Shown piece by piece: positions 3,966 through 62,900 of a DNA stretch of 64,000 bases. Below the pieces are notes generated by a model. It was not told the origin of the DNA. It was given only the letters and a program-made list of their open reading frames with translations, and did not search any database. Position 1 is the stretch's first letter. Each line of letters starts with the position of its first letter. The stretch lies in NCBI GenBank assembly GCA_964503955.1, contig CAZDCG010000001.1, positions 316,210 to 380,209 on the forward strand, read 5' to 3'. The position numbers and the translations under genes were made by a program. Source of the DNA: an uncultured Gammaproteobacteria bacterium. GTDB lineage: Bacteria > Patescibacteriota > Patescibacteriia > VMEV01 > CAYQCH01.

Positions 3966-4152
3966 CCCTCATGTCTTTGCGCTGAACCGGTTCAGAATGC
4001 CCGCGCTGTAGCACAGGTTCGTCATTTCAGCAAAAATACCCGGTATTGTCAACCATGCGCGAAGGAGCTCGCAGCAAGGCTGGACTATTGCCCTGATTTT
4101 ATGCTACGATCCTTTGTCATGAGCACTTGCTCATGCGCAAGGGGGATTTTCC

Positions 4153-4314
4153 GTGTATCTTAACGCGCCTGTTCCTGACCGAACAACCGTGATCGCGCTT
4201 TGCTTCTTCGTGCTGATTCTGCTGCTTGCCCCGCGCAAGCGCGGCAGCATCGAGATCAAGGCCGCCGGCGATCACACGAACGCGATTCCTACCCCGGGGA
4301 TGCGGCCGCGCTAA
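4153..4314 (+). CDS. small hydrophobic peptide (53 aa), not in the ORF track (<60 aa)
   Basis: GTG start 7 nt after an AAGGGGGA SD; VYLNAPVPDRTTVIALCFFVLILLLAPRKRGS... has a single TM helix. Preceded by an 18-bp near-perfect palindrome catgagcacttgctcatg and followed by a terminator. Confidence 0.3.
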   Translation: MYLNAPVPDRTTVIALCFFVLILLLAPRKRGSIEIKAAGDHTNAIPTPGMRPR

Positions 4315-4325
4315 CCCCGAAGCGA

Positions 4326-4373
4326 TGACCCTGCCGTGGAGACTCCTCTCCGCGGCAGGGTCGCTATGTTTTT
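4326..4373. terminator. rho-independent terminator (gaccctgccg...cggcagggtc + TGTTTTT), bidirectional
   Basis: 10-bp GC stem followed by a T-run; lies between convergent small ORFs. Confidence 0.6.
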
Positions 4374-4566
4374 AAAGAGAATTCTGCGCTTCCTGCATAG
4401 CAGGAATATCCGGCATAGATTCCTCCTGCTTATTTGAAAAAGATTCCCGCGAGAAAAAGACGAACAAAACGAAGACCACAAGAATTATTCCAAGAATCAG
4501 CCAGCTGGTTTTATCCATGGTGGTGAGCATAGAAATGGTATTGAGAGGTCTACCCAACGGTAGCAT
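4372..4566 (-). CDS. small membrane protein, hypothetical
   Basis: ORF with a strong TM helix (WLILGIILVVFVLFVFF); the start is probably the internal MDKTS. Confidence 0.35.
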   Translation of the reverse strand: MLPLGRPLNTISMLTTMDKTSWLILGIILVVFVLFVFFSRESFSNKQEESMPDIPAMQEAQNSL

Positions 4567-4618
4567 GAAAACGAACGGACAAAAATAGGCTATACTTAAG
4601 CCACTCTAATGAATATCT

Positions 4619-5125
4619 ATGAAAAAGCTCGCCCTGCTCGTGGTTTTAGTCGCCATTATCACCATCGTTCTTTTTGCCATGCCACAGAAAAATACTCCAA
4701 CCGCTGTCGATGAGAAGAACACGGCCTATACCATCGATGGACGAAGCGTGCCCCTGATAAACGGAGCCAGCGAACAAGAGCATTCCACAGTTCGCTACTT
4801 TGGCAATGAAATCCGCAAAGACCTAAACGGCGACGGGAAAGAAGATATCGCCTTTCTCCTCACCGAAGACAGCGAAGGCTCAGGAACGTATTTCTACCTC
4901 GTAGCCGCAATCGCTTCAGACAACGGCTATGTCGGATCAAACGCTTACCTGCTTGGAGACCGCATCGCCCCGCATTCGACCGAATCCGGCCCTGGCCTGG
5001 CCGTTATCGTCAACTATGCCGACCGCCTGCCTGACGAATCTTTTACCGCCCAGCCCTCGGTTGGAATGTCCGCGCAGCTGGTGCTTGATCCGGAGAGTTT
5101 GACTTGGAGTAATGAGAACGGGTAA
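4619..5125 (+). CDS. secreted hypothetical protein (signal peptide)
   Basis: MKKLALLVVLVAIITIVLFA signal-like N-terminus; a terminator hairpin (gacccacc...gcgggtc + T-run) lies ~100 nt downstream. Confidence 0.5.
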   Translation: MKKLALLVVLVAIITIVLFAMPQKNTPTAVDEKNTAYTIDGRSVPLINGASEQEHSTVRYFGNEIRKDLNGDGKEDIAFLLTEDSEGSGTYFYLVAAIASDNGYVGSNAYLLGDRIAPHSTESGPGLAVIVNYADRLPDESFTAQPSVGMSAQLVLDPESLTWSNENG

Positions 5126-5371
5126 AGCTGATTTTCAGACAAAAGAGCGCAGGAGATTCTCGACTAGACAAGGCCCGCAAATCCTGCTAATTTATGGATG
5201 ACCCACCACTTTGAGGCGGGTCTTTCTTTCTAAAAACTCGACTTATTTTACTGCTAGTTCAGATGCAGAACGAGGAAGAAATGAGTACCGGACCGAAGCG
5301 ATCGTGAGTGATCGCAGAGGGAAGCACGGAATTTCTGACGAAGTGCTGCGCTGAAATCGCAGTAAAAGCAT

Positions 5372-5447
5372 GGACCGGTGGTGTAGCGGTTAACATGCCT
5401 CCCTGTCACGGAGGAGATCGCGGGTTCGATTCCCGTCCGGTCCGCCA
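5372..5447 (+). tRNA. tRNA-Asp (anticodon GTC)
   Basis: GGACCGGTGGTGTAGCGGTTAACATGCCTCCCTGTCACGGAGGAGATCGCGGGTTCGATTCCCGTCCGGTCCGCCA. The cloverleaf, CTGTCAC anticodon loop, GTTCGATTC T-loop and encoded CCA are very close to E. coli tRNA-Asp. Confidence 0.9.
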
Positions 5448-6628
5448 CGAAGAGCCCCGTATTCACGGGGTTTTTCGTTTTGGGGCGCGGGCGTGTTGCC
5501 CACGGGTTGCCCAAGGATTGCTGAAGTCGGCGCCAGTGTCGGCGTGAGCGGCCCCAACTGGAAGACGAAGGACGATACCTCTCGCGCCGGCGAGAGCGGC
5601 CGACGGTCAAGCCGATCGACGAACTCCTTGAGGCGAGAGGGCTCGAGGTGGCTGTAGCGCATGGTGACCCGAATGTCACTATGGCCCAGCAGTTCCTGCA
5701 CGACCTTGAGGTGAGCGCCCGTTGCCACGAGGTGCGAGGCGAAGGTGTGGCGCAGTACATGCCACCCGACTTTGCGGAGGCCGGCAGCGGCGCACGCTTG
5801 CTTGAGCACGCGCGCCATGGCGTCTTGGTCCGAGTGCTTGCGGCCCGCGTCTTGCCCGAAGACAAAGCCCCTGCGGTGCGGCCATGCCCTCAGTGCTTCC
5901 TTCACGTCCTCGCTGAGCGGCACGTGGCGGATCTTGTTGCTCTTGGGAGGGCCGAGGCGGCGTCTCACCAGTGCCCGCCTCACCGTCAGCAGGCTCCCCT
6001 CGAGGTCGACGTCGGACCAGTCCAGCGCCAGCAGCTCTCCCAGGCGGAGCCCGGTGCGCATGGCGACGAGCACGACTCCACGCCAGAACGTGTCCTTCAT
6101 GCTCCGCAAGAGACGTTCGCTCTCCTCCAGCGTGAGGAAGTCGAACGCCTGAGGTGGAACGGGAAGAAGCCGGATCTTCGGGCGGCGGTCGAGCTCGCCC
6201 CACTCCTCGGCAATGCTAAGAGCCCGGCCGAGGGCGGCCAGGTAGTTGTTGACGGTCTTGGGCGCATAACCCTCTGCGCGCCTCGCCGCCTTGAAGCTCT
6301 CGATCAGCTTGGGGGAGATCTCATCGAGCCCGCACTCCCCGAAGAAGGGCAAGAGCTGACGGTCCAGAATAGACCGCTTCGTGCGCTGCTCGGAGTGGCG
6401 GTTGTTGGGCACGACGTACTCTCGGTACCACCGCTCGGCGAACTCCGCGAAAGTGGTGGCCTTGACGACAGGTGCGTCTGGATCAAAGCCGAGCGCGAGC
6501 TGGCGGCGGAAGTAGGTTTCGTACGCGGCAGCGCCCGCCCGGCTGCTTTCCGGGCTCTTGCGGCGATAGCGGATGCCAGCGTGGCGGAAGTCAATCCACC
6601 AGCGGTTGCGGATCTTGCGAGCGCTCAT
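5390..6628 (-). CDS. int: tyrosine-type site-specific integrase (phage-integrase family)
   Basis: Core-binding and catalytic domains with R...HVLRHTFASHLV (HxxR)...RVTMRYSHL (catalytic Tyr). The ORF runs with no stop through the att core and into the tRNA on the opposite strand, so the last ~60 codons are probably not authentic or reflect the recombinant junction. Confidence 0.9.
   Translation of the reverse strand: MSARKIRNRWWIDFRHAGIRYRRKSPESSRAGAAAYETYFRRQLALGFDPDAPVVKATTFAEFAERWYREYVVPNNRHSEQRTKRSILDRQLLPFFGECGLDEISPKLIESFKAARRAEGYAPKTVNNYLAALGRALSIAEEWGELDRRPKIRLLPVPPQAFDFLTLEESERLLRSMKDTFWRGVVLVAMRTGLRLGELLALDWSDVDLEGSLLTVRRALVRRRLGPPKSNKIRHVPLSEDVKEALRAWPHRRGFVFGQDAGRKHSDQDAMARVLKQACAAAGLRKVGWHVLRHTFASHLVATGAHLKVVQELLGHSDIRVTMRYSHLEPSRLKEFVDRLDRRPLSPAREVSSFVFQLGPLTPTLAPTSAILGQPVGNTPAPQNEKPREYGALRGGPDGNRTRDLLRDREAC
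5424..5448 (+). repeat. attL core (within tRNA-Asp 3' end)
   Basis: Exact 25-nt match to 9326-9350. Confidence 0.85.
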
Positions 6629-6894
6629 GGGGTGTTGTCGTCAACGGAGCCCACGCGGTGCTTGGCCAAGTAGGCCGCCAGGTCCTCCCGCGAGAAGCGC
6701 AGACTGCGGAGTACGCGGTGGAAGGGCAGCCGGCGCTGCTCCACAAGTCTGTAGACGCTGGCCCTGGAGATACCCAGCTGGCGGGCGACCTGGTCTGGCG
6801 TGAGGAGAAGGGGCGGCAAGGCGTGGTCCGGACGATGATGCCGTGGTTGGGCCGAATTGCGCAAATCCGGACTGTGGATAAGATCGTTGAGCAT
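6625..6894 (-). CDS. xis: excisionase/AlpA-like helix-turn-helix DNA-binding protein
   Basis: LLTPDQVARQLGISRASVYRLVEQRRLPFHRV is the HTH_17/Xis signature; overlaps the int start by 4 nt (xis-int operon). Confidence 0.7.
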   Translation of the reverse strand: MLNDLIHSPDLRNSAQPRHHRPDHALPPLLLTPDQVARQLGISRASVYRLVEQRRLPFHRVLRSLRFSREDLAAYLAKHRVGSVDDNTP

Positions 6895-7074
6895 GTTTTA
6901 TGTGGCTAAGGCTAGCGGAGAATCTATGTCCTCCCGCCCGGCAGGGACACGAACCTCGGTCGGTGTCCCTGCCAGGGTGACGGCGGCGCGAGGTGCGGCC
7001 GCACAGGCGCGAGGGCGCCCGGGAGGTGGCCAGCGGTGAGCTGGCCACGCCCGTGCCCGGGCGCTTCCGACCGG

Positions 7075-7635
7075 TCACGAGCTTGGCCTTCTCGTAGGCG
7101 GGAGAATCTTCTGCTCAATCAGATATGCCGCACCCACGGCTGCAGCGTCGAACATGTTGAGCCAGAAGGTCTCCTTCCACGCGTGGGTCTGGATCTTGTA
7201 AATCGCTAGTTCGGGGTAACGACGAATGATCTCGGTGGCGACAGTGGGCTTCTTGGCGTTTCCGTTCAGGCAGAGAATCGCTCGCGCTGAGCGCGGGGCA
7301 TACTCGACGACCAAGCCGTCGACGACGACGACCCGCTGCTCTCCGCTAGTGCGGACCGTCACCCGGTCGTTCACGACGACGGCGTCGCCGCTTCCGGGCT
7401 CGAGATCGAAGAACGTCTGCTGCTCGTCTTGGCTCACCCGGCAATCGTGCCTTACGGCCTCGTTGCCGCAAGGCAATAACGGGACACGTTCTGGTCCGCG
7501 CAATTGCCCGAGCGCTCCCGGGCCAAGCCCGCCTGTAGCGGCATCAGCAGGCGCTACGAGCCGCCGGCGGAGTCGAAAGGCGGACACATTGCGGTCCGCA
7601 GCTACCCGGCTGCCAGCCCTGCTACGACAGGGCAT
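7075..7635 (-). CDS. island cargo, hypothetical protein (start uncertain; the N-terminal ~60 codons may be non-coding)
   Basis: Only non-low-complexity frame in GC-rich DNA; the C-terminal ~110 aa (VVVNDRVTVRTSGEQRVVVVDGLVVEYAPRSARAILCLNGNAKKPT...IYKIQTHAWKETFWLNMFDAAAVGAAYLIEQK) is globular-looking; no family recognised by eye. Confidence 0.35.
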   Translation of the reverse strand: MPCRSRAGSRVAADRNVSAFRLRRRLVAPADAATGGLGPGALGQLRGPERVPLLPCGNEAVRHDCRVSQDEQQTFFDLEPGSGDAVVVNDRVTVRTSGEQRVVVVDGLVVEYAPRSARAILCLNGNAKKPTVATEIIRRYPELAIYKIQTHAWKETFWLNMFDAAAVGAAYLIEQKILPPTRRPSS

Positions 7636-7975
7636 GTCAGGAGGTCTGGAGTCTGGAGGAGGTGCGCGCCCACTTCCGGCGCCGCCTCGACGCCTACGTC
7701 TGCGAGGTCATGACCGAGCGCGCGTCCGCGCGCGCGGCGCTGGCCCCCAGGAAGGCCGACGATCGCAGCGCGACACTCCCCTACGGCTGCGGGACCTACT
7801 GGCTGGTCCGCTTCCACGGCGCGTCATGCGAGCACGCCCCGCCGGCCTGAGCGGCGAGCCGGGCCGCCGCGACGCGAGGCGCCCGGCGCGAGCGAGCTCG
7901 ATTGCGCGGCGCGCAGGCCGAGCGTGGATCGACGGAGCGCTGGAGCTCGCGGACGGCGCGGCAGTACCTGCCCAC

Positions 7976-8611
7976 TCACTGACCAGGACGAGGCGGAGCA
8001 TGCGCGAGAGCACTGAACTCGCCTACGTTCTGCATGGCATAATCAATAAGGCAATCATAAACGCGATCGCACTCGCCCTCAAAATTTAGAAACACCCTAC
8101 CCACAACGGTATCCTCCAAGCGCCCGTCGTATGCCCCGATACTCTCCAAGAACTCTCGACGTGCGTCGAGGTCTAGATGGGGATTTGGCCCTGGGAATGC
8201 GGCTACCGCCTCCGCCAAGTAACGAGCGGCATCGCGTGCCCCTATCTCCTCCAATGCCTGCACAAAAACAGAATACGACGGATTCCCGCCCCCGGCGAGA
8301 AGGTAGCAGTAGGCGTCGAGCAGAAACGGCTTGGCCTGGTCGAAGTCGAGCCAGATCAGGGCGTCAGCAATTTGACACCGCTCGCCAAAGTCGGCAAAAT
8401 CAAGAACGCTCACGTGGGGTGTTTCCTCGTGGGCCAGGATCCAGTTTACGCTGGACCTGGGGTAGCAGGTGGCTCCACCGCCTGCTGCCCGAACCCAGCA
8501 CTTGATCCCCCTGGCAGCCCTGGCGCAGTCAGGGGGTTTTCGTTGCAGGAGGGCGTGATCGATAGGCCGAGGGTGCTGCACCCGGCAAAAACAACGGACA
8601 GCATGGCACAA
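7976..8611 (-). CDS. island cargo, hypothetical protein (likely starts at the internal GTG near VSVLDFADF; ~145 aa)
   Basis: Conserved-looking region ...LDFADFGERCQIADALIWLDFDQAKPFLLDAYCYLLAGGGNPSYSVFVQALEEIG...; the N-terminal part of the long ORF is Cys/Arg-rich junk typical of wrong-frame GC-rich DNA. Confidence 0.4.
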   Translation of the reverse strand: MCHAVRCFCRVQHPRPIDHALLQRKPPDCARAARGIKCWVRAAGGGATCYPRSSVNWILAHEETPHVSVLDFADFGERCQIADALIWLDFDQAKPFLLDAYCYLLAGGGNPSYSVFVQALEEIGARDAARYLAEAVAAFPGPNPHLDLDARREFLESIGAYDGRLEDTVVGRVFLNFEGECDRVYDCLIDYAMQNVGEFSALAHAPPRPGQ

Positions 8612-38228: not shown

Positions 38229-39995
38229 CTACGATCTCTCCTCAATCTCTTTTCTGACTTTCTCAATAAATTCTGCCTTCTCCATTTCCTCCGTTTGCTG
38301 CTGCCCCCTTCGGCGGATGGCAAGCTTGCCGCCGTCTTGTTCCTTATCGCCGATCACAAGAATATACGGCACCTTCATTTTCTCTGCTTCACGGATTTTC
38401 TTGCCGACCGTATTGTCAGACACATCCACAGCCGCACGGATACCTGCTGCAATAAACTCCTGCTGCAGGGTTTTAACAAAGTCCACATGCCGCTCGCTTA
38501 CAGCCAATAAACGCACCTGTTCTGGCGCAAGCCAGACGGGAAATGCGCCCGCATAATGCTCGATCAACAATGACAGGAAGCGTTCAACCGAACCGGTAAT
38601 CGCCCGATGCAGCATCACGACGCGCTCCTCTTCTCCCTTTTCATTCGTATAGGTCAGATTGAAGCGCTCAGGCAGGTTGAAATCAAGCTGAATAGTGGCC
38701 AGCTGCCAGTCGCGGCCAAGAGCGTCTTTAGCGATAAAGTCGATTTTCGGCCCGTAAAACGCCGCTTCGCCTGTTCCATCAATAAATTCCAGACCTTGGT
38801 CCTGAAGAATCCCTTTTAGCAACCCTTCCGCCCGTTCCCAGACCTCGGTATCGCCCAGATATTTCTCAGGCGCTTTTGGATCATGCGTTGAGAGGCGCGG
38901 CGTGAGCGGCATGCCAAGATTGGCATAGAGCTTACTGATGATATCGTACATTTTCAACGCTTCCTCCTTGATCTGATCCATGCGGCAGAAGACATGCGCG
39001 TCATCCTGGGTAATCGAGCGAACGCGCGAGAGTCCTTGTAATTGGCCGGTATTTTCGTCACGGTAGACGGTTGTCACTTCACTGTAACGCAGTGGAAGAT
39101 CACGATAACTGCGCGGCTGAGAGGCGTAAATCTGCGTATGATGCGGACAATTCATCGGCTTCATGATGAATTCGTCTTCGGTCATTTTCGATTTGATATG
39201 GAAAATATCATCCGCGAATTTCTGATAATGGCCGGAGGTTTTATACAAATCGGCTTTGGCCATATGCGGGATATTCACGCGCTGGTATCCATGCGGTTTC
39301 ATCAGTTCCCAGACAAAATCCGTGACAGCTTCACGCATGATAGTTCCGCGCGGAGTAAAGAGCGGCAGCCCCTGGCCGACCAGATCGGAAAAAGCGAAGA
39401 GATCAAGCTCTTTGCCAAGTTTTCGATGATCGCGCTTTTTTGCTTCTTCGCGCATGGCCAAAAACGCGTCGAGCTCCTCCTGCGTTGGAAAGGCCAAAGC
39501 GTAAACACGTTGCAGCATTTGATTGCGTTCATCGCCGCGCCAGTACGCGCCGGCAACACGATCAAGCTTGAATACGCCGGCTTCGCCGGTTTTCTGCGTA
39601 TGTCCGCCTTTGCAAAGATCGGTAAAATCGCCATGCGAATAGAAGGTGATTTTGCCGTCTTCAAGTTCATGGAGAATTTCTACTTTGTATGGCTGATTGC
39701 GTTCTTGAAAATACGCAATCGCTTCTTCCTTGCTCACCTCTCGTCCTTCAAACGGCAAATCCTTGTTAATGATTTTGCGCATTTCCTTTTCGATTTTTTT
39801 GAAATCGTCTGGAGTGAAGGTGTGGTCGGACTCAACATCGTAATAAAATCCGTCTTCAACCGCCGGCCCGATGGCCAGTTTGGTATTTGGGTACAGTTTC
39901 ATGATGGCATCAGCCATGATATGCGCCAAAGAGTGACGCATCTTTTCAATCTCGCTCATGTCTGCTGCTTTTTTTTCTCCAAAGGCTTTTGACAT
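38229..39995 (-). CDS. thrS: threonyl-tRNA synthetase (N2 editing + catalytic + anticodon-binding domains; no N-terminal TGS domain)
   Basis: HSLAHIMA editing motif, class II motifs, and the ...RDHRKLG... region; start set at MSKAFGEKK. Confidence 0.95.
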   Translation of the reverse strand: MSKAFGEKKAADMSEIEKMRHSLAHIMADAIMKLYPNTKLAIGPAVEDGFYYDVESDHTFTPDDFKKIEKEMRKIINKDLPFEGREVSKEEAIAYFQERNQPYKVEILHELEDGKITFYSHGDFTDLCKGGHTQKTGEAGVFKLDRVAGAYWRGDERNQMLQRVYALAFPTQEELDAFLAMREEAKKRDHRKLGKELDLFAFSDLVGQGLPLFTPRGTIMREAVTDFVWELMKPHGYQRVNIPHMAKADLYKTSGHYQKFADDIFHIKSKMTEDEFIMKPMNCPHHTQIYASQPRSYRDLPLRYSEVTTVYRDENTGQLQGLSRVRSITQDDAHVFCRMDQIKEEALKMYDIISKLYANLGMPLTPRLSTHDPKAPEKYLGDTEVWERAEGLLKGILQDQGLEFIDGTGEAAFYGPKIDFIAKDALGRDWQLATIQLDFNLPERFNLTYTNEKGEEERVVMLHRAITGSVERFLSLLIEHYAGAFPVWLAPEQVRLLAVSERHVDFVKTLQQEFIAAGIRAAVDVSDNTVGKKIREAEKMKVPYILVIGDKEQDGGKLAIRRRGQQQTEEMEKAEFIEKVRKEIEERS

Positions 39996-40099
39996 AGTTG
40001 CTTTTTCGTCATTCCCGCGCAGGCGGGAATCTAGAGGATTAATCTTCTTGGTGCTATGAATCGTGCTTATAAGTGTGATTTTCCATTCACGATTCCATA

Positions 40100-40335
40100 G
40101 ATTGCAAGGAATGAATAAAAAAACTCGTCTCACGATTAATCAATGATCAATCATGGGACGAGCTTTCTTGCCCGCGGTTCCACCCATATTTGCATCAGGG
40201 ATGCACGCTCATTACACCTTTTTTCTCCAAGAGTGGTATTTTCAGAGACCGAAGAGGGGGTTTGCAGCCGCGACCCACCTTCTCTAAACAACGGCTATTT
40301 CTGAAAACATGTCTCTTTTCAACGACAAAAGGTGC
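40100..40335 (-). promoter_or_regulatory. T-box riboswitch leader of thrS (candidate Thr ACC specifier; terminator/antiterminator)
   Basis: On the minus strand there is a T-box consensus ATGGGTGGAACCGCGGG (rc of 40171-40186) and a terminator ctcgtccc...gagacgag + TTTTTTT (rc of 40116-40163). Upstream there is a stem-I-like region with AGAGA and ...gaaaatACCActc... (rc of 40232-40246), a plausible specifier loop. Confidence 0.55.
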
Positions 40336-40418
40336 AATCATTGTAGAAAATCCCCTCAAAAAGGTCAATGTATAACAGAAGGCGGCCGGAATGCGGAAAG
40401 CACTCAGCGGCCGCCCTT

Positions 40419-41114
40419 TCATGGCTCCCCCATTCTGCGGATGACGCGATTGGTGATCGCACAAAACAGGGTCTGAGCAGCTATGAAAATCAAAAGAGAG
40501 ACTGCCACTCCATGACTGAGCGTATCACAGTCAATCGTAATAATCCCCGTATCAGAGAGCACAGCGCAGACCCAAACAAAAAGAGCAAGCGCTGCGACAA
40601 CCGCACATACAATCAACGGAGTAATGTTCATCAAATAACGCAACCGATTTCGCTGATCTCCTCGCGCGCGCCACCCCGCCAAGCATGGACAGAGCTCCAA
40701 GCTGCCGGAGCGATAACAGTCAATGCATCCCCATTTCCCGCATTCCAGACAACCGCTGGTCACGGTGGGAACACGCTTGCAGCCAGGACAGATATTGCTG
40801 GCATGACCAAGGCCGCTCAGGCAGCCGTACGTCGCGCAGCCGTATTCCACCAGGCAGTCGGAATGATGCATGGTACGGCATGTGCAGCAAGCCGTTTGGG
40901 AATCATCTTGCAAAGTACCGTGACAATACGGGCACCGGCCTTCTCCAGATTGAACCTCTCTCAACTTCAATCGACACCTCGTCTCACAGAACTCGTTGCC
41001 CGATACAAATCCGGCAATCAGAACTGCCGCCGTCTGATGTTTGTGAAACAAGACGGCGAAGCTGTTCAGAAGAATGATAGTACTCTGAACCCCTCCTTTG
41101 CGAAAAAGCCCCAT
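40419..41114 (-). CDS. Cys-rich multi-zinc-finger membrane protein (C-terminal 2 TM); in frame with the upstream ORF across a TGA
   Basis: Repeated C-x2-C...C-x2-C...H...C...GC modules followed by two TM helices; separated from ORF 41118..41354 only by an in-frame TGA + Glu codon. Confidence 0.45.
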   Translation of the reverse strand: MGLFRKGGVQSTIILLNSFAVLFHKHQTAAVLIAGFVSGNEFCETRCRLKLREVQSGEGRCPYCHGTLQDDSQTACCTCRTMHHSDCLVEYGCATYGCLSGLGHASNICPGCKRVPTVTSGCLECGKWGCIDCYRSGSLELCPCLAGWRARGDQRNRLRYLMNITPLIVCAVVAALALFVWVCAVLSDTGIITIDCDTLSHGVAVSLLIFIAAQTLFCAITNRVIRRMGEP

Positions 41115-51285: not shown

Positions 51286-52347
51286 TCAAAATTGCTCCAA
51301 AAATCTCAAATCATTTCGATACAGTTCGCGCAAGTCAGGAATCGAAAGCCCTTCGCGCATTAACGCGACGCGCTCAACCCCCCAGCCGAAAGCGAATCCA
51401 TTGTACTTCTTCGTGTCAATCTTTCCCGCTTTGAGTACATTTGGATGCACCATGCCGGATCCTCCAAGCTCAAGCCATCCTTCCTTACAGAATTTGCAGC
51501 CTTCACCTTTGCAAAGTCCGCAGGTGATATCGATTTCAAAGCTCGGCTCCGTAAACTTGAAATGAAATGGCCGGAACCGGATTTCACGATCCTGCCCGAA
51601 AAAGGATTTGGCAAAATATTCCATCACGCCTTTCAGATGGCTGATACTTACGCCCTCATCGATGTACAAACCCTCAAACTGATGAAACATTTGCGTATGC
51701 GTCACGTCGGCCTGGCGGCGATAGCATTTGGCAATATTGATCATGCGGATGGGCAGCTCTCCTTTTTCCATTTCACGCACCTGCGCATTAGACGTATGCG
51801 GCGTAAGGATGACGCGTTCTCCTTTGGCATCCGGTTCGGTGACAAAGAAGGTTTCCCAGTCATCGCGCGCGGGATGATCCTGCGGCATATTCAGCCCTTC
51901 AAACGCGTAGTAATCTGATTCCACTTCAGGATAGCGGACGCGCGCAAACCCAATGCGTTTGAAAATGTCGGTGATTTCACGGATCGTTTGAGTGACCAAA
52001 TGCAAATGGCCTTGCGCGGGAGCAAGCGGCGGCAAGGTCAAATCAACCGCCAGCGAAGCCTCTTCCGCTTCCTTCTTTTTTCCCTCGTAAGCGGCTTCAA
52101 GCGCTTTTTTCAGCTCATTCGCCAATGGACCGATTTCACGTTTTTCTTCCACCGGCAGCCCGCCAAGCGACTTCATAATTTCCGTGAGCTTTCCCTGTTT
52201 GCGGCCGAGATATTGAATATGCCACGCGTCAAGCGCTTTGAGATCTGTCACTTGTTTAAGCGCATCAAGCGCCTCTTTTCGAAGTTGGTCTAACTTGTCT
52301 TTCATAATGATTTGGTAACATCTGGAAACGTATGGTACGTCTGGCAT
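51286..52347 (-). CDS. pheS: phenylalanyl-tRNA synthetase alpha subunit
   Basis: Class II motifs; ends ...LRFLEQF followed by a TGA stop, which shows TGA is a stop in this genome. Confidence 0.95.
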   Translation of the reverse strand: MPDVPYVSRCYQIIMKDKLDQLRKEALDALKQVTDLKALDAWHIQYLGRKQGKLTEIMKSLGGLPVEEKREIGPLANELKKALEAAYEGKKKEAEEASLAVDLTLPPLAPAQGHLHLVTQTIREITDIFKRIGFARVRYPEVESDYYAFEGLNMPQDHPARDDWETFFVTEPDAKGERVILTPHTSNAQVREMEKGELPIRMINIAKCYRRQADVTHTQMFHQFEGLYIDEGVSISHLKGVMEYFAKSFFGQDREIRFRPFHFKFTEPSFEIDITCGLCKGEGCKFCKEGWLELGGSGMVHPNVLKAGKIDTKKYNGFAFGWGVERVALMREGLSIPDLRELYRNDLRFLEQF

Positions 52348-52411
52348 TATTTAATGATTATACGCTATCAAACAAGCAACATTTTGACAAAATGCCATCA
52401 ACTCGTCATAG

Positions 52412-54134: not shown

Positions 54135-54175
54135 CCCGCAAGCAAGGAGGAGCTCGCGGGGTGCTTCTTTTTTCT
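54135..54175 (+). terminator. rho-independent terminator (caccccgc...gcggggtg + TTCTTTTTT)
   Basis: Hairpin plus T-run after the zinc-finger gene. Confidence 0.6.
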
Positions 54176-54177
54176 CC

Positions 54178-54212
54178 CTTGACATTCCGCTTTTTATCCC
54201 GTATTCTCAATC
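54178..54212 (+). promoter_or_regulatory. sigma70-like promoter TTGACA-17-TATTCT for the small-peptide gene
   Basis: cTTGACAttccgctttttatcccgTATTCT; the same architecture as the promoter of the 10911 small gene. Confidence 0.5.
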
Positions 54213-54288
54213 ATTATTCTCCTCTCCGGTTCTCTGCTTTGCTGCCGGCAGAGAACTGGAAAATCATTTCCAGTAGAGGAGGCTGTGT

Positions 54289-54468
54289 ATGTTCAAGCCC
54301 AGCAACGCCGCTACCAAGCCCGAGTGCGTGGCCCCCTGCAAGGAGGTGAGCGATCCGTTCGCGTCCTCCGAACAGGAGGTGCGCCGCGACGGCAACGGTG
54401 CAGCGCAGCTGGACGATGGTCCCTGCGAGGATCTGTACGACGACAACTTCTACGCCGGCGCCGACTAG
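54289..54468 (+). CDS. small acidic Cys-containing peptide (59 aa), not in the ORF track
   Basis: AGAGGAGG SD; the leader ttctcctctcc can pair with the SD; MFKPSNAATKPECVAPCKEVSD...DDGPCEDLYDDNFYAGAD; followed by an 11-bp perfect hairpin terminator (gaccccgattc...gaatcggggtc). Confidence 0.4.
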   Translation: MFKPSNAATKPECVAPCKEVSDPFASSEQEVRRDGNGAAQLDDGPCEDLYDDNFYAGAD

Positions 54469-54756
54469 CGCCCGCCGCCACCGTCGCAAGACACCAAGAC
54501 CCCGATTCGTCATCCGTGACACAAGAATCGGGGTCTTCTACGTTTCTCCCTCGTCACCTTATCCTTAATCTTCCCCTTAAACGAAAAGGAGGAGAACCTG
54601 AAGGATAAGAAAAACAAGCAACCCGCGAACTCGCTAACCCGTTAACTCGTCAACACGTTAACGCTTTTGACAAATCCCCCACCCAAACCTACGCTGTAGT
54701 TACATCCTATCAGCGGTTTTCCTACAGCCTACCTCCTACCGCCTTGAACCTAACCT

Positions 54757-61190: not shown

Positions 61191-62900
61191 ATGTCCTACA
61201 ACGAACTTATCAAACAAATCGTCGCGCAACAACCGTCATCCAGAAACGAGATGCAGACGATCATTCGTACACATATCAAATCACGCGGAGCATCCTTTCC
61301 GCGTTTTTCGCATTTGCTTGAAGCCTATCGATCCTTGGTGGCCGGCAAGGAGCTTGAAGCGCAGCCCTGGCTTGAGCCGCTGCTTATCAAACGCGCGATC
61401 CGCACGCTTTCGGGCGTAGCGCCTGTCCATGTCATGACGGCACCGCTTGGATGTCCGGCCAATTGCCTGTACTGCCCGAATGAGCCGGGCATGCCCAAAA
61501 GCTATCTTTCCAATCAGCCGGGTTCCATGCGCGCGATTCTCAATGACTTTGACCCGTACAAACAAGTCACCATGCGGCTGCGCGCGCTCTATCAGAACGG
61601 ACACCATCCCGAAAAAATCGAATTGGTTGAAAATGGCGGAACATGGACCGCGCTGCCACGTCGTTACCGCACCTGGTTTATCACCCGCTGCTATCAAGCT
61701 GCCAATGATTTTGATCCTCAAGACTTTGTCAAAACAACGGACTTCATTCCGTCTAATAATTCCCGTTTGACGATTTTAAACCGGCTCAAAGAACAGCCTG
61801 ATCATCTGCTGAAAGCATCGCTGCGCTTGCATGACGAAGACGACGAGGATTTGCTTACCGAACTTTTTGCCGCGCAAAAGATGAATGAAACAGCCCGCTA
61901 TCGCATCATCGGCATCACGCTTGAAACCCGCCCTGACTGGCTGGCTGATGATGAAATCCATCACCTGCGTCTCATGGGCTGCACCAAGCTTGAGATCGGC
62001 GTACAAAGCATCAATGAAGAAGTATTGAAATGGAATAATCGCGGACATGGCGTAGAGGCAGTTATTAACGCGACGCAAGCCTTGCGCGACGCGGGCTTTA
62101 AAGTCGGCTACCATATGATGCCGGGGATGTTTAAGTCCACACCGGAATCAGACAAACAAATGTTTGTGGAGCTCTTCGCCAACCCCGCGTTTAAGCCGGA
62201 CTTTCTCAAAGTTTATCCTTGCGTTGTCGTGCAAGAAGCTCCTCTGTATAAACTCTGGGAGCGCGGTGAGTATAAACCCTATGAAGGAGACGAACTCATC
62301 GACGTACTGATTACCATTTCACAGACCTTCCCCCGCTATTGCCGCGTCGCGCGCCTCATTCGCGATATTCCTTCAGAAAGTATTTCGGGCGGGAATAAAA
62401 TCACCAATCTCAGAGAAGTCGTTGAGCAAAACATGCGCCAGCTTGGAATTGCTTCGCAAGATATCCGCGCTCGCGAAGTCATGGGCAATGTGCAGAATGA
62501 AGAACTGGCGCACAATGATCTCGTGTATGAAACCATCAACGGCGAAGAGCATTTCCTCAGCTTTGACGGGCAGGATTCCGACAAGCTCTACGCATTCCTG
62601 CGCTTGCGGCTCCCGCAAAGCAATTCCCATTTGATCAAAACAACCTTTCCCGAGCTGATGAATGCCGCGCTGATCCGCGAAGTGCATACCTATGGCAAGC
62701 TCGCGCGTATTGGAAATGACGATGAGACAAAGCAGGCGCAACACAAAGGACTTGGCAAACAGCTGATGGAAAAAGCCGAAGAGCTTGCGCGCAATCGTGG
62801 TTATAAAAAAATCGCCGTCATCGCCGGCGTGGGAACGCGCGAATATTATCGAAAATTCGGCTACGAGCTTGAGGGGACATATATGGTGAAACCGCTCTAA
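61191..62900 (+). CDS. Elp3-like radical SAM + GNAT acetyltransferase (tRNA U34 modification family)
   Basis: Radical-SAM Cys cluster (GCPANCLYCPN), a large radical-SAM core, and a C-terminal GNAT fold (...[41 protein letters not shown]). Confidence 0.8.
   Translation: MSYNELIKQIVAQQPSSRNEMQTIIRTHIKSRGASFPRFSHLLEAYRSLVAGKELEAQPWLEPLLIKRAIRTLSGVAPVHVMTAPLGCPANCLYCPNEPGMPKSYLSNQPGSMRAILNDFDPYKQVTMRLRALYQNGHHPEKIELVENGGTWTALPRRYRTWFITRCYQAANDFDPQDFVKTTDFIPSNNSRLTILNRLKEQPDHLLKASLRLHDEDDEDLLTELFAAQKMNETARYRIIGITLETRPDWLADDEIHHLRLMGCTKLEIGVQSINEEVLKWNNRGHGVEAVINATQALRDAGFKVGYHMMPGMFKSTPESDKQMFVELFANPAFKPDFLKVYPCVVVQEAPLYKLWERGEYKPYEGDELIDVLITISQTFPRYCRVARLIRDIPSESISGGNKITNLREVVEQNMRQLGIASQDIRAREVMGNVQNEELAHNDLVYETINGEEHFLSFDGQDSDKLYAFLRLRLPQSNSHLIKTTFPELMNAALIREVHTYGKLARIGNDDETKQAQHKGLGKQLMEKAEELARNRGYKKIAVIAGVGTREYYRKFGYELEGTYMVKPL
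62798..62900 (+). repeat. elp3 3' end, copy 1 of a ~92-bp direct repeat
   Basis: ttataaaaaaatcgccgtcatcgccggcgtgggaacgcgcgaatattatcgaaaattcggctacgagcttgaggggacatatatggtgaa is repeated at 63638-63730 with ~6 mismatches and one 1-nt deletion. Confidence 0.8.

What the first reader, a model, noticed from the sequence alone, without database searches (positions are those of the whole stretch)
40100..40400. T-box riboswitch upstream of thrS, with an ORF-track false positive lying on top of it
On the minus strand upstream of thrS there is a T-box consensus (ATGGGTGGAACCGCGGG), then a terminator hairpin (ctcgtccc/gagacgag + U7). Further upstream is a stem-I-like region with an AGAGA element and a candidate specifier loop ...gaaaatACCA..., where ACC is a Thr codon followed by the conserved purine. 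T-boxes are well known in Firmicutes but sparse elsewhere. Finding one in a genome that otherwise looks CPR-like and SD-less is phylogenetically interesting. It also means the 89-aa ORF 40195..40464 is almost certainly not a gene.
Basis: partly seen in the sequence, partly recalled or inferred. Interest (0 to 1): 0.5.

Follow-up and report, generated by a model that had tools for sequence, protein, structure and literature searches.

The report
Threonine T-box leader before thrS
The stretch upstream of the threonyl-tRNA synthetase gene is a genuine tRNA-sensing T-box RNA switch, a well-known kind of regulator found here in an ultra-small CPR/Patescibacteria bacterium and in a stripped-down form that lacks one usual domain.

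Summary
Confirmed. On the minus strand, window 40334..40117 is a complete transcriptional T-box leader in front of thrS (39995..38229). It has a sigma-70-type promoter, a stem I with a K-turn, an ACC (Thr) specifier, an AG bulge and a distal loop, a stem III with RRRNG/AA flanks, the T-box sequence with a UGGAACC bulge, and a competing 24-bp terminator followed by U7. Rfam RF00230 matches end to end (53.7 bits, E 6e-9 for the whole window). That is below this copy's cut-off of 93 bits, but 8 of 9 conventional thrS T-boxes tested here also miss that cut-off. Eight distinct related leaders (ThrRS 64-75% identical) share the architecture with heavy covariation: 26 of 30 stem I pairs are compensated. 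The stem II/IIA-B domain is completely absent, as in glycyl T-boxes, and four relatives use ACU instead of ACC. ThrRS and PheT relatives and gene order place the genome in CPR (Parcubacteria-like). The 89-aa ORF is spurious. pheS and trpS have no T-box. Pairing of UGGA with the tRNA-Thr acceptor end could not be tested for this organism.

In passing: many Saccharibacteria and other CPR carry a different thrS T-box that Rfam did not report in the six such loci scanned. It has an ultrashort stem I with ACC in a hairpin loop, plus a terminator.

The parts
40374..40416 (-). Terminator-like GC hairpin (GGGCGGCC...GGCCGCC + UUCUGUU) that ends the upstream gene (stop codon 40421..40419). It marks the 5' boundary of the thrS unit.
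   Evidence: Read from the sequence. The simple terminator scan did not list it because the loop is longer than 8 nt.
40340..40368 (-). Sigma-70-type promoter: TTGACC, 17 nt, TACAAT. The inferred transcription start is around 40333.
   Evidence: It is the only promoter-like site in 39800..40800. The same TTGAC[ACT]-17-TAnnnT arrangement, ending 1-6 nt (in one case -1 nt) before stem I, is found in 8 of the 9 clade leaders.
40217..40334 (-). Stem I. It comprises a basal helix, a K-turn (5' GUUGAA 40323..40318; 3' GGAG within 40233..40217), a 4x4 specifier loop, an AG bulge and a distal loop.
   Evidence: Rfam alignment. It folds on its own as drawn, -35 kcal/mol. Over 9 leaders, 30 pairs are 88.7% paired, 26 pairs have compensatory changes, 0 of 500 shuffles reach this, and slid controls give 43-56%. 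Model R1 scores it at 106 bits.
40234..40237 (-). Specifier: ACC (Thr codon, 40237..40235) plus the following purine A (40234). It lies at the 3' end of the 3' strand of the specifier loop, directly before the helix that leads to the K-turn.
   Evidence: In the nine leaders this position reads ACC-A five times and ACU-C four times. Both are Thr codons.
40281..40285 (-). AG bulge (AGAGA).
   Evidence: Aligned to the AGAGA of RF00230. It reads AGAGA, AGGGA or AGGAA in the relatives.
40261..40273 (-). Distal loop of stem I (UCGCGGCUGCAAA). It contains the conserved CUGNAA T-loop-like motif.
   Evidence: C79, U80, G81 and A84 of the first alignment are invariant. The helix that closes the loop covaries (helix 5).
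40206..40216 (-). Short linker (UGUAAU) plus the purine flank GAGCG (RRRNG, 40210..40206). There is no stem II and no IIA/B pseudoknot.
   Evidence: Rfam skips 40 model positions here and inserts 0 nt. The linker is 6-10 nt in all nine leaders. For contrast, see the canonical L154.
40191..40205 (-). Stem III (UGCAUC-CCU-GAUGCA), followed by AA.
   Evidence: Folds as drawn. A hairpin of unrelated sequence occupies the same place in all nine leaders, flanked by RAGYG and AA. This matches the RRRxG-stem III-AA motif described in PMC11404447 and PMC7778990.
40154..40191 (-). T-box sequence and antiterminator: UGGG / CCCA and GCGGG / CUCGU helices around the 7-nt bulge UGGAACC (40182..40176). UGGA (40182..40179) would pair with the tRNA 3' end.
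   Evidence: The 9 pairs are 96% paired but invariant, so they carry no covariation information.
40117..40169 (-). Intrinsic terminator: a helix of about 24 bp whose 5' strand reuses the 3' strand of the antiterminator (CUCGUCCCA), then U7 (40123..40117).
   Evidence: -28.4 kcal/mol, z = -6.2. 20 pairs are 95% paired, 6 have compensatory changes, and slid controls give 40-48%.
39996..40116 (-). Rest of the 5' UTR. It is a lineage-specific insertion of about 110 nt with two hairpins (40100..40054, and the palindrome GAUUCCCGCCUGCGCGGGAAUGAC at 40031..40008). It is probably not part of the switch.
   Evidence: In L165, L167, L168 and L172 the ATG follows the U tract within 14-20 nt. L001, L163 and L166 carry other GC-rich palindromes at this site. 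The palindrome occurs once in the window.
38229..39995 (-). thrS, the regulated gene. The true start is ATG 39995..39993, not the GTG at 40133 given by the mechanical ORF list.
   Evidence: TIGR00418, 694 bits. The start context AACUAUG(U/A)CAAAA..UUUGGAGA recurs, in full or in part, in the closest relatives (L165, L166, L167, L172). GTG 40133 lies inside the terminator.
40195..40464 (-). 89-aa ORF. It is not a gene.
   Evidence: It overlaps the upstream gene's 3' end, that gene's terminator, the promoter and stem I. It matches no family and shows no protein-level conservation.

Best explanation
This is a threonine-specific T-box riboswitch that controls thrS by transcription attenuation.

Transcription starts about 5-7 nt after the TACAAT box, so the RNA begins with stem I.

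Inferred from the established T-box mechanism: tRNA-Thr, presumably the GGU isoacceptor, docks on stem I. Its anticodon pairs with ACC in the specifier loop and its elbow stacks on the platform formed by the AG bulge and the distal loop.

If the tRNA is uncharged, its free 3' NCCA pairs with UGGA in the 7-nt bulge. Together with stem III and its purine flanks, this stabilises the weak antiterminator, and RNA polymerase reads through into thrS.

If the tRNA is charged, the antiterminator is not stabilised. The much stronger terminator (-28 kcal/mol) forms by taking over the CUCGUCCCA strand, and transcription stops at U7 (40123..40117).

The leader has the architecture known from glycyl T-boxes: stem I, a short linker, stem III and the antiterminator, with the whole stem II/IIA-B domain missing.

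What is shown here: the sequence and structure elements, their conservation and covariation, the mutually exclusive helices, and the gene context. What is inferred: tRNA binding, charge sensing and antitermination.
For: 1. RF00230 matches end to end, E 6.9e-11 local and 6.3e-9 for the whole window. It is the only such hit in 64 kb.

2. The downstream gene is thrS, and the codon at the canonical specifier position is ACC followed by A.

3. Eight distinct related leaders, from genomes whose ThrRS is 64-75% identical, have the same layout upstream of thrS.

4. Stem I covaries: 30 pairs, 88.7% paired, 26 pairs compensated, 0 of 500 shuffles, slid controls 43-56%.

5. The terminator covaries: 95% paired, 6 pairs compensated, slid controls 40-48%. 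The antiterminator can form in all nine leaders.

6. Stem III has a different sequence in every leader but always sits between RAGYG and AA.

7. Each domain folds alone as predicted, and the terminator is more stable than stem III plus the antiterminator (-28.4 against -19.5 kcal/mol).

8. A covariance model built only from this clade's stem I picks out the stem I of conventional T-boxes in unrelated non-CPR loci (44-47 bits, E about 1e-8) and nothing else.

9. A promoter is conserved at a fixed distance in 8 of 9 leaders.

10. The specifier varies only between the synonymous codons ACC and ACU.

11. Five CPR tRNA-Thr(CGU) genes found in fetched Saccharibacteria loci all have discriminator U73 and an encoded CCA, which fits UGGA. 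Four of them lie in loci that also carry a UGGA thrS leader.
Against: The score is below Rfam's curated cut-off (53.7 against 93 bits). However, the same is true of 8 of 9 conventional thrS T-boxes tested.

No tRNA-Thr gene from this organism or its clade was available. The window holds only tRNA-Asp. The anticodon and discriminator pairings are therefore untested here, and the tRNA evidence comes from another CPR class and from the CGU isoacceptor.

Stem II, which reviews describe as needed for codons that are not all G-C (PMC7583486), is absent.

Four relatives have ACU followed by C. That breaks both the 'C rule' and the conserved purine after the codon.

One relative (L169) lacks the 3' GA of the K-turn.

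There is no experimental or expression evidence.
Confidence: 0.9

Rival explanations
1. It is a decaying relic of a T-box that no longer regulates anything.
For: The Rfam score is below the cut-off. A whole domain (stem II/IIA-B) is missing. Closely related Patescibacteria manage without any leader: L173 has a 50-nt gap and L170 has none.
Against: Every remaining element is kept in nine leaders, while helices change by compensatory substitutions. The T-box sequence and bulge are invariant. The promoter and terminator are kept at fixed positions. A relic would not preserve base pairing this way.
Confidence: 0.04
2. It is a T-box with a different specificity, for example tyrosine. UAC immediately overlaps ACC and is invariant in the clade.
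For: U-A-C is present in all nine leaders directly before the variable C/U.
Against: The U is predicted to close the helix as a G-U pair in all nine leaders. Under the UAC reading, the base after the codon would be a pyrimidine (C/U) and the codon would sit one nucleotide further from the helix than is canonical. The regulated gene is thrS. The other CPR thrS leaders present UAACCA in a hairpin loop, which contains ACC but no UAC.
Confidence: 0.02
3. It acts on translation (sequestrator/antisequestrator) rather than on transcription.
For: Translational T-boxes exist in Actinobacteria (PMC7583486). CPR transcription termination has not been characterised.
Against: The downstream helix is followed by U7. 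No SD-like sequence lies in or near it, and the genome largely lacks SD motifs. In the window the start codon is 121 nt beyond the last U of the U tract, so the helix cannot occlude it.
Confidence: 0.03
4. The region encodes the 89-aa protein (40195..40464), and the RNA resemblance is incidental.
For: An open reading frame exists. Gene callers also placed small ORFs over the same region in relatives.
Against: It has a TTG start inside the upstream gene. It matches no family. Similarity to relatives is confined to the stem I stretch, at E 0.01-0.1, and the antisense frame scores the same or better. The small ORFs called in relatives lie on different strands and in different frames.
Confidence: 0.01

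Closest known systems
thrS and thrZ T-box leaders of Bacillus subtilis and other Firmicutes (RF00230). The thrS leaders of non-CPR loci fetched here, such as L154, are examples.
   Same: They sit upstream of thrS and have an ACC specifier (L154), a K-turn, an AG bulge, a distal loop, stem III, a UGGA-type T-box bulge, and an antiterminator/terminator switch with a U tract. The window-clade stem I model recognises their stem I.
   Different: They carry stem II and the IIA/B pseudoknot (L154), or at least a IIA/B F-box element (L068, L074, L076). The window clade has only a 6-10 nt linker. The host phylum differs. That B. subtilis thrS and thrZ are T-box regulated is from my own knowledge, not tested here.
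Glycyl (glyQS / glyQ) T-boxes of Bacilli
   Same: The domain architecture is identical: a long stem I with K-turn and elbow platform, a short linker, stem III and the antiterminator, with no stem II and no pseudoknot (PMC7583486, PMC11404447). The size is similar, about 180 nt.
   Different: Their specifier is GGC and their gene is glyQS. The published reason that glycyl T-boxes can do without stem II is the all-G-C GGC:GCC duplex. Here the codon is ACC, or even ACU, which includes an A-U pair and in four relatives a G-U wobble.
Actinobacterial ileS T-boxes with intermediate or ultrashort stem I (Sherwood et al. 2015, as cited in PMC7583486)
   Same: These are relevant to the second CPR class noticed here, not to the window itself. 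In that class a K-turn is followed directly by a short hairpin presenting the codon, and a structured middle domain lies before the T-box bulge.
   Different: The window's leader has the opposite reduction: a full stem I and no stem II domain. The actinobacterial ones act on translation, whereas the CPR ones end in a terminator plus U tract.

Membership tests
T-box leader (Rfam RF00230) | Statistically significant, full-length match to the family covariance model | tested here: met
   53.7 bits over model positions 1-219. E 6.9e-11 for the local search and 6.3e-9 for the 64-kb window on both strands.
T-box leader (Rfam RF00230) | Score reaches Rfam's curated gathering cut-off (93 bits in this copy). 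This is a database convention, not a biological feature. | tested here: not met
   53.7 is below 93. For calibration, 8 of 9 conventional thrS T-boxes in non-CPR loci also fall below it (60-89 bits). The 40 model positions of stem II/IIA-B are absent here.
T-box leader (Rfam RF00230) | Stem I with a GA (K-turn) motif at its base | tested here: met
   5' GUUGAA and 3' GGAG flank covarying helices (helices 1 and 2). The motif is present in 8 of 9 clade leaders.
T-box leader (Rfam RF00230) | Specifier loop presenting a codon for the amino acid of the regulated gene, followed by a purine, next to the helix above the K-turn | tested here: met
   ACC-A at 40237..40234 before thrS. Relatives read ACC-A five times and ACU-C four times. 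In the ACU-C group the purine is not kept.
T-box leader (Rfam RF00230) | AG bulge and distal loop (the tRNA elbow platform) | tested here: met
   AGAGA and the CUGNAA loop motif are aligned to the model and conserved, and the helices around them covary. Formation of the double T-loop in three dimensions is not testable here.
T-box leader (Rfam RF00230) | Stem II with S-turn and the stem IIA/B pseudoknot. These are present in most T-boxes and absent from glycyl ones. | tested here: not met
   The linker between stem I and the stem III flank is 6-10 nt in all nine leaders. This is not a universal feature of the family (PMC7583486).
T-box leader (Rfam RF00230) | Stem III flanked by 5'-RRRNG and AA-3' | tested here: met
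   GAGCG-UGCAUC CCU GAUGCA-AA. The same flanks surround unrelated hairpins in all nine leaders.
T-box leader (Rfam RF00230) | Conserved T-box sequence forming an antiterminator with a 7-nt UGGNACC bulge | tested here: met
   AAAUAUGGGUGGAACCGCGGG. It folds with the bulge UGGAACC. The 9 pairs can form in all leaders but are invariant.
T-box leader (Rfam RF00230) | A mutually exclusive terminator that shares a strand with the antiterminator, followed by a U tract | tested here: met
   -28.4 kcal/mol, z = -6.2, followed by U7. Covariation is shown.
T-box leader (Rfam RF00230) | UGGN pairs with the NCCA end of the cognate tRNA, with N complementary to the discriminator base. The anticodon is complementary to the specifier. 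| not testable with these tools
   There is no tRNA-Thr in the window or in clade loci. Indirect evidence: five Saccharibacteria tRNA-Thr(CGU) genes have U73 and CCA, which fits UGGA.
T-box leader (Rfam RF00230) | Read-through dependent on uncharged tRNA | not testable with these tools
   This requires in vitro transcription or reporter assays.

The most novel reading that the evidence does not exclude
thrS T-box control may be widespread across CPR/Patescibacteria in two complementary minimal designs.

(a) The design in this window has a full stem I and no stem II domain at all, on a non-glycine codon. Four members use ACU, which would be a natural test of the published idea that stem II is needed for weak codons and that it imposes the 'C rule'.

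(b) The design in Saccharibacteria, Nomurabacteria and others has an ultrashort stem I with the codon in a hairpin loop, a pseudoknot-like middle domain, and an intrinsic terminator. That contradicts the generalisation that transcriptional T-boxes need a long stem I. The Rfam model did not report this class in the six such loci that were scanned.

Neither design appears in the searchable literature.
Probability: 0.5. Interest if true: 0.65.

Novelty: new member of a known kind. Interest (0 to 1): 0.45.

Why it matters
T-boxes are textbook regulators. Surveys place more than 95% of them in Firmicutes, with a few in Actinobacteria, Chloroflexi, Deinococcus-Thermus and delta-Proteobacteria (PMC2494555). 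I found no paper linking them to CPR/Patescibacteria.

This case shows that a reduced, largely SD-less CPR lineage keeps a protein-free, tRNA-sensing switch on thrS. It extends the known range of the family.

It also offers a natural threonyl T-box without the stem II domain, which is relevant to current models of what stem II is for (PMC7583486).

On the practical side, it removes a false gene call, fixes the thrS start, and shows that Rfam's cut-off and model miss real T-boxes in these genomes.

Tried and rejected
- The Rfam scan at gathering threshold found nothing but a tRNA. The permissive scan was needed.
- Exact-sequence look-ups of the window's ThrRS with two candidate starts found nothing, and one attempt was out of frame.
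- The metagenome scan returned only relatives at 53% identity or less.
- No tRNA-Thr from the clade could be obtained. Only tRNA-Thr(CGU) genes from Saccharibacteria loci were found.
- My first regex (TGGNACCNCG) and the Rfam model both missed the ultrashort class. It was found by chance when control loci were printed.
- RNAalifold's distal stem I pairs were replaced by the canonical AG-bulge/distal-helix layout, which was then tested explicitly.
- The second GGTGGTACC in the window (6424..6432) lies inside a long ORF and is within chance expectation, so it was rejected.
- The Tyr (UAC) reading, a coding ORF, a relic and translational control were all considered and rejected (see the rival explanations).
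- The middle domain of the ultrashort class was only partly resolved. Subtype B was not analysed.

Full report
**Observation**

- The T-box sequence AAAUAUGGGUGGAACCGCGGG lies at 40191..40171.
- A long terminator helix lies at 40169..40124, with U7 at 40123..40117.
- AGAGA lies at 40285..40281.
- ACC lies at 40237..40235, followed by A at 40234.

Rfam at its gathering score reports only a tRNA-Asp. With permissive filters, RF00230 matches model positions 1-219 at 40331..40151 with 53.7 bits. The E-value is 6.9e-11 for the local search and 6.3e-9 for the whole window, where it is the only T-box hit.

The gathering score in this Rfam copy is 93 bits. To see what that cut-off means, I scanned conventional thrS leaders in non-CPR loci. 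Nine T-boxes were found at 60-110 bits, and only one exceeds 93. The sub-threshold score is therefore not evidence against membership, particularly since the window's RNA lacks the 40 model positions of stem II/IIA-B.

**Context**

The downstream ORF is thrS (TIGR00418, 694 bits).
- Its real start is ATG 39995. The start context AACUAUG(U/A)CAAAA..UUUGGAGA recurs, in full or in part, in the closest relatives (L165, L166, L167, L172).
- The GTG at 40133 in the mechanical ORF list lies inside the terminator.
- The upstream gene ends at 40419 and is followed by its own hairpin (40416..40374).
- The only promoter-like site in the region is TTGACC-17-TACAAT at 40368..40340. It ends 5 nt before stem I.
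- The same promoter arrangement is found in 8 of 9 clade leaders.

**Organism**

- The closest ThrRS proteins are unnamed metagenomic sequences at 72-75% identity. The next tier, at 57-61%, includes hits named Patescibacteria group, Uhrbacteria and Giovannonibacteria.
- PheT gives the same placement: Parcubacteria group, Uhrbacteria and Magasanikbacteria.
- A Patescibacteria MAG contig (L173) has the same pheT..dnaE..thrS gene order.
- SD-like motifs precede 3 of 35 long ORFs, which equals the random background.

The 'CPR-like, SD-less' description therefore holds, with the caveat that the ORF starts are uncurated.

**Comparative test**

All closer relatives I could fetch carry the same leader upstream of thrS. 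These are L001, L163/L164, L165, L166, L167, L168, L169 and L172, with ThrRS 64-75% identical.

*Stem I.* This was tested on alignment A2 with an explicit canonical structure (basal helix, K-turn, specifier helix, helix below the AG bulge, distal helix).
- It has 30 pairs, which are 88.7% paired.
- 26 pairs have changes on both sides.
- 0 of 500 shuffles reach this, and slid controls give 43-56%.

*Terminator.* It has 20 pairs, which are 95% paired. Six pairs have compensatory changes, and slid controls give 40-48%.

*Antiterminator.* It can form in all nine leaders, but its sequence is invariant, so it offers no covariation.

*Stem III.* It differs in sequence in every leader but always sits between RAGYG and AA. 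This is the published RRRxG-stem III-AA motif (PMC7778990, PMC11404447).

*Folding of isolated domains.*
- Stem I folds as drawn, at -35 kcal/mol.
- Stem III plus an antiterminator with the 7-nt UGGAACC bulge gives -19.5 kcal/mol.
- The terminator gives -28.4 kcal/mol (z = -6.2).

*Cross-check.* A covariance model built only from the clade's stem I (R1) scores the nine members at 75-112 bits. Beyond them it finds only the stem I of conventional T-boxes in non-CPR loci (L154/L156/L160 at 44-47 bits, others at 21-30 bits). It finds no other CPR locus and no second site in the window.

**Specificity**

The 3' strand of a 4x4 internal loop reads ACCA in the window, L167, L168, L169 and L172. It reads ACUC in L001, L163, L165 and L166. 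ACC and ACU are both Thr codons, the gene is thrS, and the codon occupies the canonical place just before the helix above the K-turn.

The overlapping UAC (Tyr) is less likely for three reasons.
- Its U is the invariant G-U closing pair of the helix.
- Under that reading the next base would be a pyrimidine.
- The other CPR thrS leaders present ACC without UAC.

UGGA predicts a tRNA discriminator U73. No tRNA-Thr from this clade could be obtained. Five tRNA-Thr(CGU) genes in Saccharibacteria loci all have U73 and an encoded CCA, and four of them lie in loci that also carry a UGGA thrS leader. This evidence is indirect.

**Mechanism**

The mechanism is inferred from the established T-box model.
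- Uncharged tRNA-Thr binds stem I through its anticodon and elbow.
- Its free 3' end pairs with UGGA and stabilises the antiterminator, so transcription continues into thrS.
- Otherwise the stronger terminator forms and transcription stops at U7.

A translational mode is unlikely. There is no SD to hide, and the start codon is 121 nt beyond the last U of the U tract.

**What is unusual**

The whole stem II/IIA-B domain is missing. Only 6-10 nt separate stem I from the stem III flank in all nine leaders.
- Reviews treat this as a peculiarity of glycyl T-boxes. They explain it by the strong GGC:GCC duplex and attribute the 'C rule' to the stem II S-turn (PMC7583486; PMC11404447).
- Here the codon is ACC. 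In four relatives it is ACU followed by C, which breaks both the C rule and the purine rule.
- Loss of stem II alone is not unique. Some Clostridiales thrS leaders fetched here also lack stem II, but they keep a IIA/B F-box element.

**Distribution**

Not all related Patescibacteria have the leader.
- L173 (ThrRS 60% identical, same gene order) has a 50-nt gap and no T-box. L170/L171 (61%) have none either.
- Within the window, pheS is nearly leaderless, with TATAAT 9 nt before the ATG. trpS has a plain leader of about 50 nt. Neither has a T-box.

**The 89-aa ORF**

ORF 40195..40464 starts inside the upstream gene and crosses that gene's terminator, the promoter and stem I. It matches no family. 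Its only similarity to relatives is E 0.01-0.1 over residues 43-83, which is the stem I stretch, and the antisense ORF scores the same or better there. It is not a gene.

**Noticed on the way**

While printing control loci, I found GGUGGAACC just upstream of thrS in 61 further loci, representing 56 distinct leaders. They come from Saccharibacteria (including the complete TM7i genome), Nomurabacteria and other CPR.
- At a fixed distance upstream lies a K-turn-like GA motif, followed directly by a 4-5 bp hairpin whose loop reads NNUAACCAN.
- In a gapless alignment of 30 such segments, the tandem G-A positions are invariant, as is UAAC plus the following A in the loop (the third codon base is C in 29 of 30). 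All 7 pairs show compensatory changes, 94% of cells are paired, and slid controls give 30-46%.
- For one subtype, the full leader was tested with 24 pairs: the specifier hairpin, two crossing helices in the middle, and an extended antiterminator around UGGAACC. They are 95% paired, 14 pairs are compensated, and slid controls give 29-43%.
- These leaders end in a terminator plus U tract, followed by an SD and the ATG.
- The Rfam model did not report them at E <= 0.01 in the six such loci included in that scan (L002, L004, L021, L033, L045, L049).

Reviews state that ultrashort stem I forms belong to translational, mostly actinobacterial T-boxes, and that transcriptional ones need a long stem I (PMC7583486). 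This class therefore deserves its own study.

**Literature**

Searches that combined T-box with Patescibacteria, candidate phyla radiation, Parcubacteria or Saccharibacteria returned nothing relevant. A 2008 survey lists Firmicutes, Actinobacteria, Chloroflexi, Deinococcus-Thermus and two delta-Proteobacteria. The library searched is not complete, so prior mention elsewhere cannot be excluded.

**Verdict**

This is a genuine threonyl T-box acting on transcription, and a new member of a well-known family. It occurs in an unreported host group and has the glycyl-type minimal architecture. The element itself is of moderate interest. The broader pattern of thrS T-boxes across CPR is the more novel lead.

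Noticed in passing
L039:2850-2995; L061:2800-2975; L121:1280-1470; L033, L005, L017, L047 and about 50 further loci: This is a second class of thrS T-box, found in Saccharibacteria, Nomurabacteria and other CPR. A K-turn-like GA motif is followed directly by a 4-5 bp hairpin with ..UAACCA. in its loop (an ultrashort stem I). Then come a structured middle domain of about 60 nt with crossing helices, GGUGGAACC in an antiterminator, and a terminator plus U tract, followed by SD and ATG. Covariation is strong. Rfam did not report these leaders in the six such loci scanned. Transcriptional T-boxes with an ultrashort stem I run against the generalisation in PMC7583486.
   Followed up: partly
L071:2730-2935 (identical leader in L136:1230-1435): A Paceibacterota MAG has a weak RF00230 hit (33.2 bits) upstream of thrS, with a canonical GGGUGGAACCGCG core and a terminator. 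However, ACC is presented in the 7-nt loop of the hairpin GUUAUGG-CUACCAA-CCAUAAU, and there is no long stem I (no R1 hit). This is possibly a third layout.
   Followed up: partly
window 39996-40116 (-): An insertion of about 110 nt lies between the T-box terminator and the thrS ATG. It holds two hairpins: 40100..40054, and the perfect palindrome GAUUCCCGCCUGCGCGGGAAUGAC at 40031..40008. The palindrome gives a partial, sub-threshold Rfam hit to the Francisella sRNA FtrB (27.4 bits, E 0.031). L001, L163 and L166 carry different GC-rich palindromes at the same spot, and L165, L167, L168 and L172 have none. It looks like a small mobile or REP-like insertion. Only one copy is present in the window.
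   Followed up: partly
window, starts of 35 long ORFs: SD-like motifs occur at background frequency (3 of 35). Many start codons are instead directly preceded by AACU, ACU or CCU (for example GCAACU-AUG at thrS). This may be a lineage-specific initiation context.
   Followed up: no
window 52348-52372 (-), upstream of pheS: pheS appears nearly leaderless. TTGTCA-17-TATAAT ends about 9 nt before the ATG at 52347.
   Followed up: no
window 54170-54540 (+): A small self-contained unit lies upstream of trpS. It has a promoter-like TTGACA..TATTCT, a strong GGAGG SD, a 59-aa ORF (54289..54468) and a terminator-like hairpin. It is one of the few ORFs here with a clear SD.
   Followed up: no
most Saccharibacteria loci among L004-L162: A tRNA-Val gene (anticodon GAC in 80 cases, UAC in 17) turns up in most of the fetched thrS loci. 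Where I looked (L004, L021, L033, L049, L121), it lies on the opposite strand about 220-600 nt upstream of thrS.
   Followed up: no
L163:1238-1411, L167:1104-1289 and 1341-1436, L172:1303-1479: Public gene calls place small ORFs without any Pfam hit over the T-box leaders of the relatives, on various strands. They are probably the same kind of false positive as the window's 89-aa ORF.
   Followed up: no
window 61191-62900 (+): A bacterial Elp3-type radical SAM/GNAT tRNA-modification enzyme (TIGR01211, 540 bits). miaA, miaB and gatB are also in the window, making it rich in tRNA-related genes.
   Followed up: no
window 4001-8000: This segment has 61.5% G+C, against about 50% elsewhere. It contains the tRNA-Asp gene and overlapping long ORFs on both strands.
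   Followed up: no
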